A stretch of 64,000 bases of DNA, taken from NCBI GenBank assembly GCA_964588495.1, contig CAZPPS010000010.1, positions 1,281-65,280 on the forward strand. Direction: 5' to 3'. This document shows, one piece after another, positions 12,611 through 51,510 of the stretch. The stretch comes from an uncultured bacterium (GTDB lineage: Bacteria; Chlamydiota; Chlamydiia; Chlamydiales; JAAKFR01). Below the pieces are notes generated by a model, which was given only the letters and a program-made list of their open reading frames with translations, did no database searches and was not told the origin of the DNA. Position 1 is the stretch's first letter, and the number at the start of each line of letters is the position of its first letter. Position numbers and translations under genes: made by a program.

Positions 12611-12742
12611 GTAATTCAACACGAAGACACGAAGACACTAAGGCACAAAGAAAAAAATATGGTAAAATTGTAGAAACCCTATTTTTTTGATTTTTCCTAT
12701 CTCTTTGTGTCTTTGTATTTTCGTGTCTTTGTGTTGAATTTC
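12611..12742. repeat. Family A nested palindromic repeat, copy A1
   Basis: The arms are aattcaacacgaagacacgaagacactaaggcacaaag and ctctttgtgtctttgtattttcgtgtctttgtgttgaatt (imperfect reverse complements). Both arms are built of ACACRAAG 8-mers. Confidence 0.85.
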
Positions 12743-32378: not shown

Positions 32379-32493
32379 ACCGACCTGAGCTTCCGTTTTT
32401 TTTAACACAAAGACACAAAGGCACAAAGAAAAAAATATATAGGTCTCTTCGTGTCTTTGCGTCTTTGTGTTAAAAAAACGGAAGCTCAGGTCG
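32379..32493. repeat. Family A palindromic repeat, copy A3 (near-perfect)
   Basis: ccgacctgagcttccgttttttttaacacaaagacacaaaggcacaaag pairs with cttcgtgtctttgcgtctttgtgttaaaaaaacggaagctcaggtcgg. Confidence 0.9.
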
Positions 32494-32511
32494 GGCACGC
32501 TCACGGGCGTG

Positions 32512-36539: not shown

Positions 36540-37291
36540 AATTTGAAAGGGCCTTAATTACTGGGGCCAGCTCTGGAATTGGGGAGGCACTTGCCCACCT
36601 TTTAACTCAAAAAGGGATCTCTTTGATTGTGTCGGGAAGAAATCAAGAGCGCCTTGAAAAATTAAAAGCCGAGCAAATCCTCGTAGTCGATCTTCAAAAT
36701 CGTGAAGAGAGAAAAAAAATCATTGAGACAATCCGCCAGAAAACGCCCGATTTGGTGATTAACTGCGCAGGTTTTGGCTTTATGGGCGATCTTTTGACAA
36801 TCTCCGTAGAAGAGCAGCTTGCCATGGTTGAGGTAAATGTGATGGCGGCCCTTGAGATTACACTGGAAGCAGCGCGTGCCTTGGTTAGAGCAGGAAAAAA
36901 AGGGGTGATCCTGAATGTCTCCTCTGTGGCGGGCGAATTTCCCTGTCCAGGGGAAAGCGTTTATGGAGCGACAAAGGCTTTTTTGACAAAAGCCTCTCAG
37001 GCTTTAGATGTTGAAGTGCGGGTAAAAGGGATCTCTATACTCGCAAGCTGTCCTGGAATGGTGGCTACTGATTTTACAAACCGGGCGGCAAAAAAACAGG
37101 TGAACAACCTGGGAAGTGTGGTCATGACCCCCCAATTTGCGGCAGAAGAAATTTGGCGGCAAATTGAGAAAAGGAAAAAAAAGCATATTTTCAATTGGCA
37201 GTATCGGGTACTCTCTTGGTTTGCAAAATACTTGGTACCCAATTCACTTATCGAAAAAATTATATGGAAGCAGATCAAACAGAGAACGTAA
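36536..37291 (+). CDS. Short-chain dehydrogenase/reductase (SDR)
   Basis: It has the TGASSGIGEA cofactor motif and the catalytic YGATKAF (YxxxK). Confidence 0.85.
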   Translation: MKFERALITGASSGIGEALAHLLTQKGISLIVSGRNQERLEKLKAEQILVVDLQNREERKKIIETIRQKTPDLVINCAGFGFMGDLLTISVEEQLAMVEVNVMAALEITLEAARALVRAGKKGVILNVSSVAGEFPCPGESVYGATKAFLTKASQALDVEVRVKGISILASCPGMVATDFTNRAAKKQVNNLGSVVMTPQFAAEEIWRQIEKRKKKHIFNWQYRVLSWFAKYLVPNSLIEKIIWKQIKQRT

Positions 37292-38457
37292 ATAATTTTG
37301 AATCTTTGAATTTAGACCCTTTGGTTCTCGATGCCATCCGGGAAATGGGTTATTTAACTCCCACTCCCATTCAGCAAAACACCATCCCCTTGATTATTGA
37401 GGGAAAAGATCTGATTGCTTTGGCTGAAACAGGCTCGGGAAAAACAGCTGCTTGCTGTATCCCCATTTGCCACAAAGTGGATCCCAAAAATATCCACGTA
37501 CAGGCGCTGATTGTGGTTCCGACGCGGGAGCTTGCCCTTCAATACGCGACCGAGGCCCAAAAAATTGGACGCGTCAAGCAGGTCAAAGCTTTTGCCCTCT
37601 TTGGAGGGGAAGACATGCAGATGCAGCGTGCCAAGCTCAAAGATGGTGTGCAAGTTTTGATTGCAACACCAGGCAGATTGATCGATTTTATCTACGCCCG
37701 GGCCATTAATTTGACACAAGTTGAGACACTTGTTCTCGATGAGGCCGATCAAATGCTCGGGATGGGTTTTTATGAGGACTTGGAATTTATTATCCAATGT
37801 CTGAACCACGCCCATCAAACTCTTCTATTTTCGGCAACCATGCCCAAACAGATCCGTTCGATTGCAAAAAACCACATGCAACAGCCGCTTGAGATCTCTC
37901 TGATTTCAGAACAATCAACTCCCGACTCGCTCACGCATCAATTTCTTTTTTGTCCGCAGCCTAAACAGCGCAGAGAAGAGCTATTAACCCTTCTTCAGGA
38001 AACCGATCCCAAACAGTGCCTTGTCTTTGTCAATTCAAGACGGGAAGTCGAAGAGCTCTACTATGCCTTTAAATCGAAGCTCTCAGGTGTTGATTACCTC
38101 CACGGTGGCCTTGAACAGAACATCCGGACAATTGTCACCAATAAATTCATGAAAGGAAAAATCCGTTACCTGATTGCAACAGACATTGCAGCAAGAGGGC
38201 TTGATTTTTCAAACGTCTCCCACGTCTTTAACTACCATTTCCCCTTCGACAATGAAACCTACCTGCACCGTGCAGGACGGACCGGTAGGTCGGGACGGAT
38301 TGGGACTTGCGTCACACTTGTCACTTCCCGCGACTTGTCTCAAGCAAGCCAGCTCTTCAAAATGCTGCACAAAGAGCCTGATTGGCTCAGAAAGCCCCCT
38401 TCGCGCTCTGCATCCACATCTGATAGATCCCCAAGACCTCCCCGCAAACAAGATTAG
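37264..38457 (+). CDS. DEAD-box ATP-dependent RNA helicase
   Basis: It has a Q-motif region (TPTPIQ), AETGSGKTAA, PTRELA, DEAD (LVLDEADQM), SAT and HRAGRTGRSG. The track ORF begins upstream at 37195, but ATG 37264 gives the typical N-terminus. Confidence 0.93.
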   Translation: MEADQTENVNNFESLNLDPLVLDAIREMGYLTPTPIQQNTIPLIIEGKDLIALAETGSGKTAACCIPICHKVDPKNIHVQALIVVPTRELALQYATEAQKIGRVKQVKAFALFGGEDMQMQRAKLKDGVQVLIATPGRLIDFIYARAINLTQVETLVLDEADQMLGMGFYEDLEFIIQCLNHAHQTLLFSATMPKQIRSIAKNHMQQPLEISLISEQSTPDSLTHQFLFCPQPKQRREELLTLLQETDPKQCLVFVNSRREVEELYYAFKSKLSGVDYLHGGLEQNIRTIVTNKFMKGKIRYLIATDIAARGLDFSNVSHVFNYHFPFDNETYLHRAGRTGRSGRIGTCVTLVTSRDLSQASQLFKMLHKEPDWLRKPPSRSASTSDRSPRPPRKQD

Positions 38458-38509
38458 TCGGTAACAAAGAGAGATTATTTTTGGACTTTTGTAGAAAAAG
38501 TTCCGTGTA

Positions 38510-38727
38510 AACTCAACACAAAAACACGAAGATACAAAGACACAAAGAGAGGGAAATTTTTCCTCTCTCGGTGTCCTCTGTGGTTTCATAAATTCCCGAA
38601 AAGCATTTTATCACAAGCGTGTATGGAAAAATAAAAAAACCACAGAGATCAGAGAGTACACAGAGAGGGGGACATAAATAACCCTATCTCTTTGTGTCTT
38701 TGCGTCTTTGTGTCTTCGTGTTGGATT
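38510..38727. repeat. Family A nested palindromic repeat, copy A4 (outer CACAAAGA arms, inner CCACAGAG arms)
   Basis: Outer arms are aactcaacacaaaaacacgaagatacaaagacacaaagagag and tctctttgtgtctttgcgtctttgtgtcttcgtgttggatt. Inner arms are ctctcggtgtcctctgtggtttcataaattcccgaaaagc and aaaaaccacagagatcagagagtacacagagag. Confidence 0.9.
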
Positions 38728-38811
38728 AAAACGCAACTTTTATACAAAAAATCCTCAAGCCTAGACAGGAAACAGAGAGAAGATAGCCTCTCTCTCTTTG
38801 TGTTTAAAGTG

Positions 38812-40389
38812 TTAGGTGGTTTTTTTCGCTTGGAACATGAGCCCCACCTCTGCCAGGTCTCTATCTGTCTTCAGCTTTTGCAAGCTGTATTCCGTTTTTT
38901 GCACAAGTTTTTCGAGATCGGCTAACATGATCTTTCTTGCAGATTCCACGCCGTGCTCCTGACAGAGAGTTAAAAACTCGATTTTTTTACCACTTGCATG
39001 GATTGCTTCATGGAAACTAAGGTGGCTTTCCCGTTTCTGTTGGATTGTCGTTTCGAGATCCTTGACCTCTTGAAGGATAGGGCCTCGCTTTTGTTCCAGT
39101 TCTTCTTCAGTGATCTCAAAGAGCTGACTATCTTCTGGTAGATTAAAGAAATTGAGAGGAGAGCCAAATAAACGTTCTCTGGCATTGTATTGATTGTGAA
39201 TACAGACGCCGATCTCAGCATCTACTGCTTTCTGGTCTTTGATCAACTTATCAAGAATTGCACGTTCTTCCAGGTTCAGCGTGCTAATTGATTTTTGATC
39301 TCCCTCAAATTTCTGACAATAGGTTTGCGTAAGACGGTAAGCGCTGAGTTCATGCTCCTTAAGGGCGATTTCTTTTTCCATTTTATTTTTAGACTTCAAG
39401 AATAAAAATTTCTCTTCCTGCAACTCAAAAGCCTCTTTGTGGCGGAATAAATGCTTTAATTCCTTAAAGTCAAACATTTCCTGAATGTCATAAGAGGGTG
39501 CTCGATTCATAGGAGATTTATTGGGGACTAAATTATCACAACACGCGTTTCCATAGAGGACGTATTCGTCGGATGGAGGCGAAAAGGAGAGAGTGAGTTC
39601 CTTAAAGTAGTGCTTTATATAGGTGATTTCTTTTTTAGAGAACAGGAGCAATAAGTTAGGTTCTTGGAGTTTACAAAAGATTTGTACTTTTCTTTCAAGC
39701 TCTGGAATAGATCCAAACATATTCTTCACTTGACCCTTCACAACCCTGGGTGAAACCTCAAATATTTGCTGAAGGAATGGGTCGCAAGTTTCGCAACTAT
39801 AGATGGAACCCTCGCCTTCAGATCTTTCGACATCCAAAGAGCCCAGTTTTTTAAGTGTTTTTTTAGCTTCCTTATTCGCTTGTAGCAATGTTTCTGAATC
39901 TATTTGCTGTATCTGAGACTTAATCTGATAAAGCGGATGCTTATTTAAAGCATAATTGGTAAACACACAAGCTACACGTCCCAAGTTGCTTGAAGAATTG
40001 GTCCATTCTGTCCAGCTTTCATTTGAAAAAAGGCGGCTGACATAGCCATCTGGCTTTTTAAGGGATTGCATCAATGTTTGATTGTTTGTGTTGTACATCA
40101 TCCAGAACACTTTAGCTAAAGAATTCAGATGTTTGCCATGGGTGCCATTCATGGCCAATACACATTCAAGAGCTTGGGTAAACCCTCGAATTTTGCGCAC
40201 AGTGGTCTCGATCATGTCAGTTGGGCTATAAGTAGTATCGTTAGTGAATATGCGAGTTAGCTCTTTTAGTTGGGACACATTTAGTGATTTTTTTGAAAAG
40301 CCAATGGAAGAATCGGAATAGCCTTGGCAAGCATTTTCATGATAAGCAATATTAGATGTAAAACGATAAGCTTCTGGCGCTTGAGACAT
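38812..40389 (-). CDS. Hypothetical 525-aa protein with coiled-coil-rich C-terminal half (candidate secreted effector)
   Basis: It is a long clean ORF with no recognisable catalytic motif, TM segment or signal peptide. It has charged heptad-like stretches (EKEIALKEHELSAYR..., LEQKRGPILQEVKDLETTIQQKRE). Confidence 0.45.
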   Translation of the reverse strand: MSQAPEAYRFTSNIAYHENACQGYSDSSIGFSKKSLNVSQLKELTRIFTNDTTYSPTDMIETTVRKIRGFTQALECVLAMNGTHGKHLNSLAKVFWMMYNTNNQTLMQSLKKPDGYVSRLFSNESWTEWTNSSSNLGRVACVFTNYALNKHPLYQIKSQIQQIDSETLLQANKEAKKTLKKLGSLDVERSEGEGSIYSCETCDPFLQQIFEVSPRVVKGQVKNMFGSIPELERKVQIFCKLQEPNLLLLFSKKEITYIKHYFKELTLSFSPPSDEYVLYGNACCDNLVPNKSPMNRAPSYDIQEMFDFKELKHLFRHKEAFELQEEKFLFLKSKNKMEKEIALKEHELSAYRLTQTYCQKFEGDQKSISTLNLEERAILDKLIKDQKAVDAEIGVCIHNQYNARERLFGSPLNFFNLPEDSQLFEITEEELEQKRGPILQEVKDLETTIQQKRESHLSFHEAIHASGKKIEFLTLCQEHGVESARKIMLADLEKLVQKTEYSLQKLKTDRDLAEVGLMFQAKKTT

Positions 40390-51279: not shown

Positions 51280-51510
51280 AAACACAAAGTCGCAAAGTCG
51301 CGAAAACACAAAGGGTAAATTTTTTCTTTTTCTGTGTTCTCTGTGTGCTCTGTGGTTTTATAAATTCCCAAAAAGCTTTTTTATAAAAAGTGTGCGAGAT
51401 AAAAAAATAACCACAGAGCACACAGAGAACACAGAAAAAGATTTTTTTTTGTTATCTCTACGTGGAGGACAGAATACATGGTCTCGCTTTGCGTTTAGAA
51501 ACACAAAGAG
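51280..51510. repeat. Family A nested palindromic repeat, copy A5
   Basis: The outer left arm is aaacacaaagtcgcaaagtcgcgaaaacacaaagg. Inner arms are ctgtgttctctgtgtgctctgtggttttataaattcccaaaaagc and aaccacagagcacacagagaacacagaaaaag. The degenerate outer right arm is gctttgcgttt..acacaaag. Confidence 0.85.

What the first reader, a model, noticed from the sequence alone, without database searches (positions are those of the whole stretch)
38510..38727. Family A: dispersed nested-hairpin repeats whose arms are made of degenerate 8-mer tandem units (CACAAAGA / CACAGAGA)
At least six intergenic copies exist: 12611-12742, 25039-25112, 32379-32493, 38510-38727, 51280-51510 and 56301-56498. Fragments lie near 58143-58161. 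Each copy is a long imperfect palindrome whose arms are themselves short-period repeats (acacRaag acacRaag ...). Three copies (A4, A5, A6) contain a second inner palindrome with CCACAGAG-type arms. A4 and A5 share a conserved loop (gtggttt(c/t)ataaattccc(g/a)aaaagc). Arms differ between copies yet stay complementary within each copy. That suggests selection for, or a mechanism that maintains, hairpin or cruciform structure rather than primary sequence. They sit at gene ends, often between convergent or tandem genes and next to lineage-specific genes. Possible roles are REP/MITE-like elements, transcription terminators or mRNA stabilisers, or recombination hot spots.
Basis: seen in the sequence. 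Interest (0 to 1): 0.6.

Follow-up and report, generated by a model that had tools for sequence, protein, structure and literature searches.

The report
Gene-less hairpin repeat of nuclease element
The 206-base nested hairpin between two converging genes of an uncultured chlamydia is a gene-less copy of a widespread selfish-looking DNA element; complete copies carry a small nuclease gene of unknown function between the same repeat-built arms, and nobody yet knows how the element spreads.

Summary
Window 38516-38721 is a 206-nt nested palindrome. Its outer arms are four ACACRAAG octamers. Its inner arms are CACAGAG-type 9-mers. It folds into one long hairpin on either strand (z about -10.5).

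The genome has 49 paired copies with the outer (A) arms and about 43 inner (B) modules.

Arms show almost no copy-specific compensation: 6.4 mismatches per 32 within a copy against 7.7 between copies. The motif sequence itself is conserved (arms 75-82% identical, linkers about 30%).

Both arm types bracket a roughly 125-aa PF13366/GxxExxY PD-(D/E)XK nuclease gene elsewhere in this genome. A arms do the same in four other phyla. Arm type follows protein clade.

Other evidence:
- Internally deleted copies exist in a relative.
- Same-genus genomes lack the family, and at two orthologous sites the flanking genes abut or lie close together.
- There is no target-site duplication, no Y1 transposase and no terminator U-tract.

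Best reading: a non-autonomous, REPIN/MITE-like derivative of a nuclease-carrying hairpin element, of the same build as 23S rRNA intervening sequences. Mobilisation by the nuclease is inferred, not shown.

The scan has reported this nuclease-hairpin link before, in this genome and in at least 671 others.

The parts
38483..38515 (.). Left outer flank. It is copy-specific sequence that pairs with 38722-38754 and forms a fourth, outermost tier of the palindrome. Its last bases, AACTCA, are the family's TTCA-type edge.
   Evidence: the repeat finder I1 and I11. Family-wide, flank positions 5-24 are more complementary within a copy than between copies (7.39 against 5.97 of 20, p<2e-4).
38516..38547 (.). 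A-left arm: four octamers, ACACAAAA ACACGAAG ATACAAAG ACACAAAG.
38548..38561 (.). Linker between the A and B arms. Together with neighbouring bases it can also form a small local hairpin at 38539-38575.
   Evidence: I5. Linkers are only about 30% identical between copies.
38562..38583 (.). B arm, pyrimidine version (CCTCTCTCGGTGTCCTCTGTGG). The CTCTGTGG end faces the centre, so the arm is 'inside-out' compared with the gene-carrying B element.
   Evidence: (I4)
38584..38639 (.). Central 56-nt loop of the B module (TTTCATAAATTCCCGAAAAGC...AAATAAAAAAA). The loop length is held at 51-60 nt across 43 modules.
   Evidence: Its left part resembles the 3' flank of the gene-carrying B copy (18/30, p about 0.001).
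38640..38667 (.). B arm, purine version (CCACAGAG ATCAGAGAG TACACAGAGAG).
38668..38689 (.). Linker between the B and A arms.
38690..38721 (.). A-right arm: CTTTGTGT CTTTGCGT CTTTGTGT CTTCGTGT.
38722..38754 (.). Right outer flank, which pairs with 38483-38515.
   Evidence: I1, I11
37195..38457 (+). Upstream gene, a DEAD-box helicase (motifs AETGSGKT, DEAD, SAT and HRAGRTGR read in the translation). Its stop lies 58 nt before the element.
   Evidence: Orthologues in relatives are about 73% identical, with a different downstream context.
38812..40389 (-). Converging gene, a lineage-specific 525-aa hypothetical protein. Its stop lies 90 nt from the element.
   Evidence: No relative was found in metagenome contigs.
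12619..12734 (.). Family copy A1, medium class (52-nt loop, flanks GTAATTCA/TGAATT).
25041..25109 (.). Family copy A2, a short hairpin with 2-3 ACGCAAAG/ACACAAAG units per arm.
32405..32470 (.). Family copy A3, short-loop class. It sits at the centre of an unrelated outer palindrome at 32379-32496.
51281..51436 (.). Family copy A5: an A-left arm and a complete inside-out B module. The A-right arm is degenerate.
56308..56499 (.). Family copy A6, a composite of diverged A arms and a B module. CACGG-type arrays lie in its right flank.

Best explanation
The element at 38516-38721 is a gene-less, non-autonomous member of a family of hairpin-ended DNA elements. Complete members carry a roughly 125-aa PD-(D/E)XK nuclease gene (Pfam PF13366, NCBIfam GxxExxY) between the same arms. 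This copy is a composite: an A-type hairpin (arms of four ACACRAAG octamers) holds a B-type hairpin (arms of three CACAGAG-type 9-mers) in its loop, and the whole sits at the centre of a further, copy-specific palindrome.

Shown here:
- Both arm types bracket their own GxxExxY gene in this genome.
- A arms bracket GxxExxY genes in other phyla.
- Arm type follows protein clade.
- Internally deleted copies exist.
- The family is lineage-specific, and two other copies occupy sites where the flanking genes abut or lie close together in sister species.
- The copies make no target-site duplication.
- Their arms are conserved in sequence while their linkers are not.

Inferred:
- The cognate nuclease recognises the tandem units sequence-specifically. 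The fixed positions are C, C, A, A, G; the two purine positions are free.
- It probably acts when the arms are single-stranded or extruded as a hairpin.
- Its cuts, with host repair or replication, copy the element preferentially into the tips of other hairpins. This would give the nested tiers.
- When transcribed by read-through from either converging gene, the roughly 90-bp stem would be an RNase III substrate, as shown for 23S rRNA intervening sequences. Any effect on mRNA 3' ends is then a by-product.
For: Gene link in this genome:
- C2:98621-99061 and C21:28800-29247 are A-arm elements that enclose PF13366 ORFs (E 1e-36 to 1e-39).
- C34:25813-26245 is a PF13366 gene between B arms identical in type to the inner arms of the focal element.

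Other phyla:
- A arms abut PF13366 genes in Sphingopyxis, Prolixibacteraceae, Flavobacterium, Gemmatimonadota, a spirochaete and an actinomycete.
- Hairpins with these arms occur in loci of 33-69% GC.

Unbiased sample and co-occurrence:
- About 16 of the 30 best PF13366 loci in Chlamydiota lie between inverted short-period arrays.
- All 17 Chlamydiota genomes with the A pattern have PF13366, against 108 of 300 overall. So do 5 of 5 A-hairpin genomes tested, four of them from other phyla.

Arm type against protein clade:
- Chlamydial A-arm proteins form a 100/100 clade.
- Non-chlamydial A-arm proteins form a 99/95 clade.
- B-arm proteins cluster elsewhere.
- The A label needs 5 changes on the tree, against a shuffled mean of 7.6 (3 of 500 shuffles as low).

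Origin and spread of gene-less copies:
- Deletion derivatives: G153 has a full element followed by three roughly 250-nt copies that retain gene fragments.
- The 19 composites share one architecture, so they were amplified as gene-less units.
- Homology between copies ends 4-10 nt outside the arms.

Lineage specificity:
- Same-genus G002 and G003 have 0 pattern hits.
- At the orthologue of C2:49141 the converging genes abut in G002 and G003 (at most a 17-nt gap against 264 nt here).
- At the orthologue of C7:19331 the gap is about 20-30 nt in G001 and G003, against about 340 nt here.

Constraint on sequence: arms are 75-82% identical, linkers 29-34%.

Hairpin-tip location: flanks are palindromic in a copy-specific way, p<2e-4.

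Protein: the model has pLDDT 85. The best fold matches are Cas4, lambda exonuclease and RecE. D84 and E94 are invariant.
Against: - No movement was seen. Copies are old (75-81% identical).
- A minimal nuclease cannot transpose DNA alone, and the other activities needed are not identified.
- Only 2 A-type and 1 B-type intact-looking genes serve about 50 and about 45 copies. The catalytic Lys is Arg in the C21 copy.
- The inner B modules have the opposite polarity to the gene-carrying B copy. One Allosphingosinicella gene lies between arms of that reversed polarity. The element's true ends are therefore not defined.
- The bias to gene 3' ends is equally expected for a useful RNA element.
- An earlier check in this scan (seen) priced the 'own nuclease moves it' claim at about 20%.
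Confidence: 0.6

Rival explanations
1. This is an Ssn-like partnership with no transposition by the nuclease. The arrays are dispersed recognition sites of a site-specific (single-strand) nuclease that acts on incoming or replicating DNA, for example to modulate recombination, DNA uptake or defence. The gene merely sits among its own sites, and the repeats spread by other means.
For: - There is a precedent in print: small GIY-YIG Ssn nucleases are flanked by hairpin repeats that they bind and cut. Of the ssnA homologues, 42% are flanked on both sides, and 81% of repeat-rich genomes have the gene (PMC11893778).
- The same pattern is seen here: co-occurrence in 17 of 17 and 5 of 5 genomes and sequence-specific conservation of the units.
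- The fold resembles Cas4 and lambda exonuclease, enzymes that act on DNA ends or single strands.
Against: - It does not explain the deletion derivatives that keep gene fragments.
- It does not explain why arms and gene travel together across phyla.
- It does not explain the nesting at hairpin tips.
- An obligate intracellular chlamydia has little obvious use for control of DNA uptake.
- The family is missing from same-genus genomes.
Confidence: 0.2
2. This is a host-beneficial RNA element: a transcription terminator, insulator or mRNA 3'-end stabiliser between converging genes.
For: - Copies are enriched between convergent genes (40% against 18%) and depleted between divergent genes (6% against 18%).
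- Copies lie closer to the upstream stop codon than to the next start codon (median 44.5 against 91.5 nt, p=0.012).
- The hairpin is very stable on both strands.
Against: - No U-tract follows the stem. T-runs precede it and A-runs follow it.
- A separate terminator-like hairpin lies at 38774-38795.
- There is no G.U over A.C bias on the transcribed strand (29 against 27).
- There is no compensatory variation.
- The family is absent from same-genus genomes, whose orthologous genes abut without it.
- The same arms enclose a nuclease gene in distant phyla.
- No Rfam family matches.
Confidence: 0.1
3. This is a homing arrangement. The gene-less hairpins are empty target sites, and the nuclease gene is the mobile part. 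It is copied into a cut hairpin loop by recombination, with the arms serving as homology.
For: - Genes sit exactly where the loops are in gene-less copies, in hairpins of either polarity.
- Loops also accept other hairpins, or a different small gene such as PF05635.
Against: - It does not explain how about 50 gene-less hairpins reached unrelated intergenic sites that are empty in sister species.
- It does not explain why composite gene-less units share one internal architecture.
- The deletion derivatives point from gene-carrying to gene-less, not the other way.
- Arms of 24-32 bp are short for homology-directed copying.
Confidence: 0.08
4. The copies are unrelated low-complexity sequence or slippage-made simple repeats that look alike by chance.
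For: Some single hits in other phyla are plain octamer microsatellites without a partner arm, for example in Vibrio and in Verrucomicrobia LW23.
Against: - The pattern gives 118 hits against 0 for the reversed control in this genome, and 0 control hits in all 301 genomes.
- The arms come in 49 inverted pairs of one polarity.
- Arm length is fixed at 3-4 units, and inner modules and loop motifs are shared.
Confidence: 0.01

Closest known systems
Intervening sequences (IVS) of bacterial 23S rRNA genes that carry a small ORF, such as the Coxiella burnetii IVS with S23p (PMC4990558; read)
   Same: - Both have a small ORF in the loop of a long stem made by terminal inverted repeats.
- In Coxiella the 5' part of the IVS holds tandem heptamers (GACAGAT, 2-3 copies, varying between strains).
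- The IVS sits at the tip of an existing hairpin (helix 45), and the family here lies at the centre of other palindromes.
- The IVS is regarded as selfish and of unknown mobility.
- This genome also has an S23p-type gene (PF05635, C4:71677-71988) between inverted CCGTG/CACGG arrays. Such arrays flank some A copies.
   Different: - The cargo is a PD-(D/E)XK nuclease, not a four-helix-bundle protein.
- The sites are intergenic, not in rRNA.
- Most copies are gene-less and nested.
- RNase III excision has not been tested here.
REP / REPIN elements with their RAYT (Y1/HUH) transposase (PMC2817692 and PMC3733652, listed; Bertels and Rainey 2011 from my own knowledge)
   Same: - Both are high-copy intergenic palindromes.
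- A single-copy gene is flanked by the same repeats.
- There is no target-site duplication.
- Doublets can fold as one long hairpin or as two short ones.
- Families are lineage-specific.
   Different: - This genome has no Y1 transposase.
- The arms are arrays of 8-9-nt units and do not begin with a GTAG or CGTC head.
- The associated protein belongs to another superfamily.
- The same arm motif recurs across phyla.
Ssn nucleases and their NTS/SRM repeats (PMC11893778)
   Same: - A small nuclease gene is framed on both sides by hairpin-forming repeats that are dispersed in many copies.
- Gene and repeats co-occur across phyla.
   Different: - Ssn is GIY-YIG, whereas this protein is PD-(D/E)XK.
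- NTS is a short unique hairpin, not a tandem array.
- Cleavage and biological role are shown for Ssn and unknown here.
Bacterial MITEs such as Correia/NEMIS of Neisseria (own knowledge)
   Same: - Both are short, non-coding and bounded by inverted repeats.
- Both are intergenic and derive from longer coding elements by internal deletion.
   Different: - There is no target-site duplication.
- No DDE transposase parent exists.
- The arms are built from tandem units.
Inverted arrays of GGGAATC heptamers in Xanthomonas, and STRR heptamers in Nostoc/Anabaena (PMC4692102)
   Same: - Intergenic short-period tandem arrays are often paired in convergent orientation, which gives potential stem-loops.
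- No function is known.
   Different: - The units are G-rich heptamers, studied as quadruplex formers.
- That paper reports no associated gene or mobile element.
Foldback (FB) elements of Drosophila and other eukaryotes (own knowledge)
   Same: Long inverted terminal arms are themselves made of short tandem repeats, and most copies are non-coding.
   Different: They are eukaryotic and much larger. The relation is one of analogy only.

Membership tests
PF13366 / TIGR04256 (GxxExxY, PD-(D/E)XK) for the proteins enclosed by A and B arms | Score above the curated cut-off, with the GxxExxY motif and the D...E.K catalytic core | tested here: met
   Pfam 126-129 bits (cut-off 22) and NCBIfam 134.8 bits (cut-off 35). 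GPGLLES.Y, D84 and E94 are invariant. The C21 copy has R instead of the Lys.
REP/REPIN-RAYT system | A Y1/HUH transposase (RAYT, PF01797) gene in the genome, flanked by the repeats | tested here: not met
   No PF01797 match in the own genome (97% complete), while 6 of 14 control genomes give a match.
REP/REPIN-RAYT system | A 20-40-bp palindromic unit with a conserved GTAG or CGTC head (PMC3733652) | tested here: not met
   The arms begin TT(C/A)A-ACAC and consist of 3-4 tandem octamers.
REP/REPIN-RAYT system | High-copy intergenic palindromes without target-site duplication, lineage-specific | tested here: met
   49 pairs; no TSD; 0 hits in same-genus genomes.
MITE (derivative of a DDE insertion sequence) | Direct target-site duplication flanking the terminal inverted repeats | tested here: not met
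   Direct repeats of 2-8 nt are no more frequent than between unrelated flanks. The flanks are inverted, not direct.
MITE (derivative of a DDE insertion sequence) | A parent element with the same ends that encodes a transposase | tested here: not met
   The only gene found between these arms is the 125-aa PF13366 nuclease.
ORF-carrying 23S rRNA IVS-type elements | A small ORF in the loop of a stem formed by terminal inverted repeats | tested here: met
   Full-length A and B copies; a PF05635 copy between CCGTG/CACGG arrays.
ORF-carrying 23S rRNA IVS-type elements | Location in helix 25 or 45 of 23S rRNA, with excision by RNase III | tested here: not met
   All 49 copies lie between, or at the ends of, protein-coding genes. 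RNase III cleavage cannot be tested with these tools.
Ssn/NTS system | A GIY-YIG nuclease | tested here: not met
   The protein is PD-(D/E)XK by Pfam and by fold.
Ssn/NTS system | Site-specific cleavage of single-stranded DNA at the repeat | not testable with these tools
   This needs purified protein and oligonucleotide substrates.
Intrinsic (Rho-independent) terminator | A G+C-rich stem with a short loop, followed directly by a U-tract | tested here: not met
   The scan does not call the element. The flanks are T-run / hairpin / A-run or AATTCA / hairpin / TGAATT.
Known structured RNA families (Rfam 15) | A match at the gathering score | tested here: not met
   0 matches in the window. There are only weak hits to miRNA-precursor models (at most 18.8 bits) at E up to 10.

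The most novel reading that the evidence does not exclude
The tandem-unit hairpins, the GxxExxY-carrying elements, the S23p-carrying elements and the classical 23S rRNA intervening sequences are one undescribed class of mobile DNA. This class targets structure rather than sequence. It inserts at the tips of existing hairpins without a target duplication, uses a minimal nuclease (or a host enzyme) that reads short tandem words in the arms, and so builds nested multi-tier palindromes. Several cognate arm/protein lineages coexist in one genome and nest inside each other.
Probability: 0.2. Interest if true: 0.8.

Novelty: new variant of a known kind. Interest (0 to 1): 0.55.

Why it matters
PF13366/GxxExxY is a very large protein family with no known function. 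Its genes were found in 108 of 300 Chlamydiota genomes searched.

Short-period inverted arrays have been noticed in Xanthomonas, in cyanobacteria and in the Coxiella IVS without an explanation.

Tying a specific arm word to a specific nuclease clade gives directly testable pairs of enzyme and substrate. It could explain where rRNA intervening sequences come from. If the enzymes prove sequence-specific on single-stranded or hairpin DNA, they would also be useful tools, as the Ssn family already is.

For genome annotation, these hairpins should be treated as repeat elements, not as terminators or small-RNA genes. They also break assemblies: several arms lie at contig ends.

Tried and rejected
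- Rfam, at gathering and permissive thresholds: nothing relevant.
- Literature search for the arm sequences: one unrelated hit. Search for GxxExxY or PF13366: the function is listed as unknown.
- Empty site for the focal copy: the same-genus helicase orthologues have different downstream neighbours, so no comparison was possible. The converging 525-aa gene has no relative in metagenome contigs. Three of six other sites tried were also not clean.
No RNA-seq, read-level polymorphism or strain comparison could be made.
- Copy-specific compensation in the arms: the effect is small. In the central loops there is none, and chimeras fold slightly better. A first version of the loop test used a faulty pattern and was discarded.
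- Idea that the inside-out B module is the junction of a circular or tandem form, with its loop made of the 3' flank plus the 5' flank of the gene copy:
  - The 3' flank fits (18/30, p about 0.001), but the 5' flank does not (15/30, not significant).
  - A parallel case for A arms looks better by eye (L059 against the gene copy of the same genome, G142), but it was not tested statistically.
  - I keep this as a lead only.
- Idea that CACGG-type arrays regularly form the tier outside A elements: only 1 of 49 copies has them on both sides.
- Sequence search of the PDB: no hit. PADLOC gives only weak Cas4-like core similarity, and PHROGs gives none.
- Chi-site, rut-site, CRISPR and telomere-like readings were considered and dropped. 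They are incompatible with the inverted pairing, the gene link or the cross-phylum conservation.
Full report
**1. What is there**

The stretch 38516-38721 is a 206-nt palindrome in tiers.
- The outer arms are 38516-38547 and 38690-38721. Each is four octamers of the type ACACRAAG, or its complement.
- After a short linker come the inner arms, 38562-38583 and 38640-38667. They are built from 9-mers of the type (N)NCACAGAG and surround a 56-nt centre.
- Outside the element, 38483-38515 pairs with 38722-38754, giving a fourth, copy-specific tier (pairs I1 and I11).
- Either strand folds into one long hairpin: -90.7 and -96.9 kcal/mol as RNA, z about -10.5, and no shuffle does as well. The DNA fold gives z = -7.8.
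- The element lies between a DEAD-box helicase gene (stop at 38457) and a converging 525-aa gene (stop at 38812).
Two qualifications apply: 51281-51436 lacks a good right outer arm, and 58143-58161 is only an arm remnant.

**2. The family in this genome**

The window is contig C10:1281-65280 of a 2.42-Mb, 71-contig, 43% G+C genome. Its relatives in the genome search sample include a record titled Parachlamydiaceae, in the same order. It is therefore an environmental member of the Chlamydiales.
- I find 141 A arms and 49 pairs. All have the purine-rich arm first.
- They fall into classes by what lies between the arms:
  - 12 with loops of 15-28 nt.
  - 15 with loops of 34-65 nt. Several of these share a loop and AAGTAATTCA/TGAATTACTT edges.
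  - 19 composites of 121-161 nt, like the focal copy.
  - One of 300 nt.
  - Two of 384 and 393 nt.
- The inner module also exists on its own. About 100 B arms form about 43 modules with loops of 51-60 nt.
- The three-unit A pattern occurs 118 times, and the same pattern read backwards never occurs.
- Copies are 75-81% identical to each other, and their similarity stops 4-10 nt outside the arms. They are therefore old, separate insertions and not segmental duplications.

**3. Is it structure or sequence that is kept?**

- The two arms of one copy differ at 6.4 of 32 positions, and arms of different copies differ at 7.7. This is significant by permutation but small.
- Mismatches inside copies are G.T 74 times and A.C 73 times. 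On the strand transcribed from the upstream gene they are 29 against 27. An RNA stem under selection would favour G.U.
- The central loops fold no better than chimeras made from two different copies.
- What is kept is the word itself. Variation in the arms is concentrated at unit positions 1 and 5 (A or G). In the first two units, positions 2, 4, 6, 7 and 8 are at least 95% fixed.
- The same pattern holds in loci of at least 50% G+C from other phyla.
- In the alignment of the 19 composites, the arms are 75-82% identical, the linkers 29-34% and the centre 51%.
- This is the signature of sequence-specific recognition, not of a structure that any complementary sequence could supply.

**4. The gene**

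The two longest A elements, C2:98621-99061 and C21:28800-29247, hold an ORF between the arms. It matches Pfam PF13366 (PDDEXK_3) and NCBIfam TIGR04256 (GxxExxY) far above the cut-offs.

A note from an earlier stage of this scan pointed me to this gene. I tested it independently.

The genome has five such loci.
- The best, C34:25855-26205, lies between B arms of exactly the kind that form the inner hairpin of the focal element.
- A broken copy on C5 and a fragment on C37 lie next to still other short-period arrays.

So each of the two arm types in the focal element has its own nuclease gene elsewhere in the genome.

In the chlamydial A and B copies the start codon lies just outside the 5' arm, and the arm is read in frame (MRLEEFNTK..., MIFDEFLKTTEHTENTE...). 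In Sphingopyxis and Prolixibacteraceae the arm lies just before the ATG.

**5. Beyond this genome**

- The four-unit A pattern is found in more than 108 contig stretches from many phyla, with 33-69% G+C. Many of these form hairpins with loops from 8 to about 500 nt.
- Some single hits are plain octamer microsatellites and should not be counted.
- Among the 108 loci, six hold a PF13366 ORF, and five of these ORFs abut A arms.
- All five A-hairpin genomes tested (an actinomycete, a spirochaete, Allosphingosinicella, Saprospiraceae and the Parachlamydiaceae MAG that is also G142) have PF13366 genes. Several of these genes lie next to A-type arms.
- Within Chlamydiota the A pattern is patchy. It occurs in 17 of 301 genomes and is abundant only here and in one Parachlamydiaceae genome. 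It is absent from both high-quality same-genus genomes.
- PF13366 is present in 108 of 300 Chlamydiota genomes and in all 17 that have the pattern.
- In an unbiased set of the 30 best PF13366 loci, about 16 lie between inverted short-period arrays.
- A tree of 47 proteins puts the chlamydial A-arm proteins in one clade (100/100), the non-chlamydial A-arm proteins in another (99/95), and the B-arm proteins elsewhere. The A label is clustered: 5 changes against a shuffled mean of 7.6, with 3 of 500 shuffles as low.
- My arm labels were partly automatic, and some 'none' or 'other' rows do have A arms on inspection. The association is therefore probably understated.

**6. Signs of a mobile past**

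- In genome G153 a full A element is followed by three tandem copies of about 250 nt. These keep the arms and recognisable pieces of the gene, so gene-less forms arise by internal deletion.
- The 19 composites share one internal plan, so they multiplied as gene-less units.
- At the orthologue of copy C2:49141-49349, the two converging genes abut in G002 and G003 (at most 17 nt apart by the search coordinates, and touching in the sequence). Here they are 264 nt apart.
- At the orthologue of C7:19331-19534, the genes are about 20-30 nt apart in G001 and G003 and about 340 nt apart here.
- There is no direct target duplication. Instead, the DNA just outside the arms is complementary in a copy-specific way (7.39 against 5.97 of 20 positions, p<2e-4). 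The copies therefore tend to sit at the centre of other palindromes, as the focal copy, A3 and C7:19331 show.
- The genome has no Y1/RAYT transposase.

**7. The protein**

- An AlphaFold model made from a seven-sequence alignment has mean pLDDT 85. The first 14 residues, which are the translated arm, are disordered.
- The best fold matches are Cas4 proteins, lambda exonuclease, RecE and an alkaline exonuclease. The scores are weak (TM 0.4-0.5, E about 2e-3).
- There is no PDB relative by sequence and no membership of a defence family.
- The protein is thus a minimal nuclease core of the Cas4/RecB-like branch, not a Holliday-junction resolvase of the Hjc type.

**8. Comparison with what is known**

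- The closest published architecture is the ORF-carrying intervening sequence of 23S rRNA.
  - The Coxiella IVS is a 428-nt selfish element at the tip of helix 45.
  - It has a 28-bp terminal stem, a small ORF (S23p) and two or three tandem heptamers in front of the ORF.
  - It is cut out of the RNA by RNase III (PMC4990558).
- This genome has an S23p-family gene (PF05635) between inverted CCGTG/CACGG arrays. Such arrays also flank some A copies, though rarely on both sides.
- REP/REPIN-RAYT systems share the logic of a single gene among its own palindromes, but their defining features are not met here.
- The Ssn family shows that a small nuclease framed by dispersed hairpin repeats can cut those repeats in single-stranded DNA (PMC11893778).
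- Inverted heptamer arrays in Xanthomonas were described without an associated gene (PMC4692102).
- I found no paper that links GxxExxY to tandem-unit arms.
- Earlier agents of this scan reported the same link in other pieces of this genome and in at least 671 other genomes. A later check there put the claim 'its own nuclease moves it' at about 20%.

**9. Open points**

- The inner B modules are inside-out compared with the gene-carrying B copy: the CCACAGAG end faces the loop.
- A arms occur inside-out in another chlamydial genome.
- One Allosphingosinicella gene lies between arms of reversed polarity.

Both polarities give the same duplex stem, which would suit a protein that reads the stem. 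It also means that the true ends of the element are unknown.

No movement, cutting or transcription was observed.

**10. Verdict**

- The element is best read as a non-autonomous member of a nuclease-associated hairpin family. I put membership at about 0.85. I put the whole statement, including mobilisation through recognition of the arms, at about 0.6. The step 'the nuclease itself moves it' is no better than about one in three.
- It is neither a classical terminator nor a conserved RNA.

Noticed in passing
own genome C4:71677-71988 (outside the window): A 23S-rRNA-IVS-protein family gene (PF05635, four-helix bundle) lies between inverted arrays: CCGTG-type units upstream and CACGG-type units downstream. 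A second small-ORF family therefore has the same build. A broken copy is at C22:24607-24918.
   Followed up: partly
L147 (G153:C1:136800-138400): A full A-arm GxxExxY element is followed by three tandem units of about 250 nt. These are internally deleted copies that retain gene fragments.
   Followed up: partly
L015:456-1464 (spirochaete MAG from a termite gut): Nine A arms in the same orientation are spaced about 115 nt apart. Between them is a conserved G+C-rich spacer of about 83 nt that looks structured. This is a tandem array rather than a set of hairpins.
   Followed up: no
window 22557-22795 and 24957-25160: Two further long palindromes have arms of about 9-nt GATAT/GATAA units. Arrays of the same kind lie next to the PF13366 fragment on C37 and the broken copy on C5. 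They are probably two more arm families of the same system.
   Followed up: partly
window 58200-58226: A canonical intrinsic terminator (CCCGGAG...CTCCGGG followed by T7). It shows what terminators look like in this genome, in contrast to the A hairpins.
   Followed up: no
L180:2520-2688 (own genome C4:88920-89087): An unrelated repeat of about 167 nt has more than 50 matches in same-genus genome G001 and about 10 in G003.
   Followed up: no
own genome C3:6466-6797: An A-arm pair encloses 300 nt with no ORF. The 300 nt hold several copies of yet another palindromic word (GCGCCACTCACGCGGCT-like).
   Followed up: no
L087:5151-5625 (a 33% G+C locus from the cross-phylum scan): An A-arm pair encloses a 79-aa ORF that does not match the GxxExxY profile. 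It may be a different cargo.
   Followed up: no
own genome contig ends (C3:152, C4:155, C10:83, C41:156, C70:101 and others): A and B arms lie within about 300 nt of many contig ends. These repeats are a cause of the fragmented assembly, and copy numbers are lower bounds.
   Followed up: no
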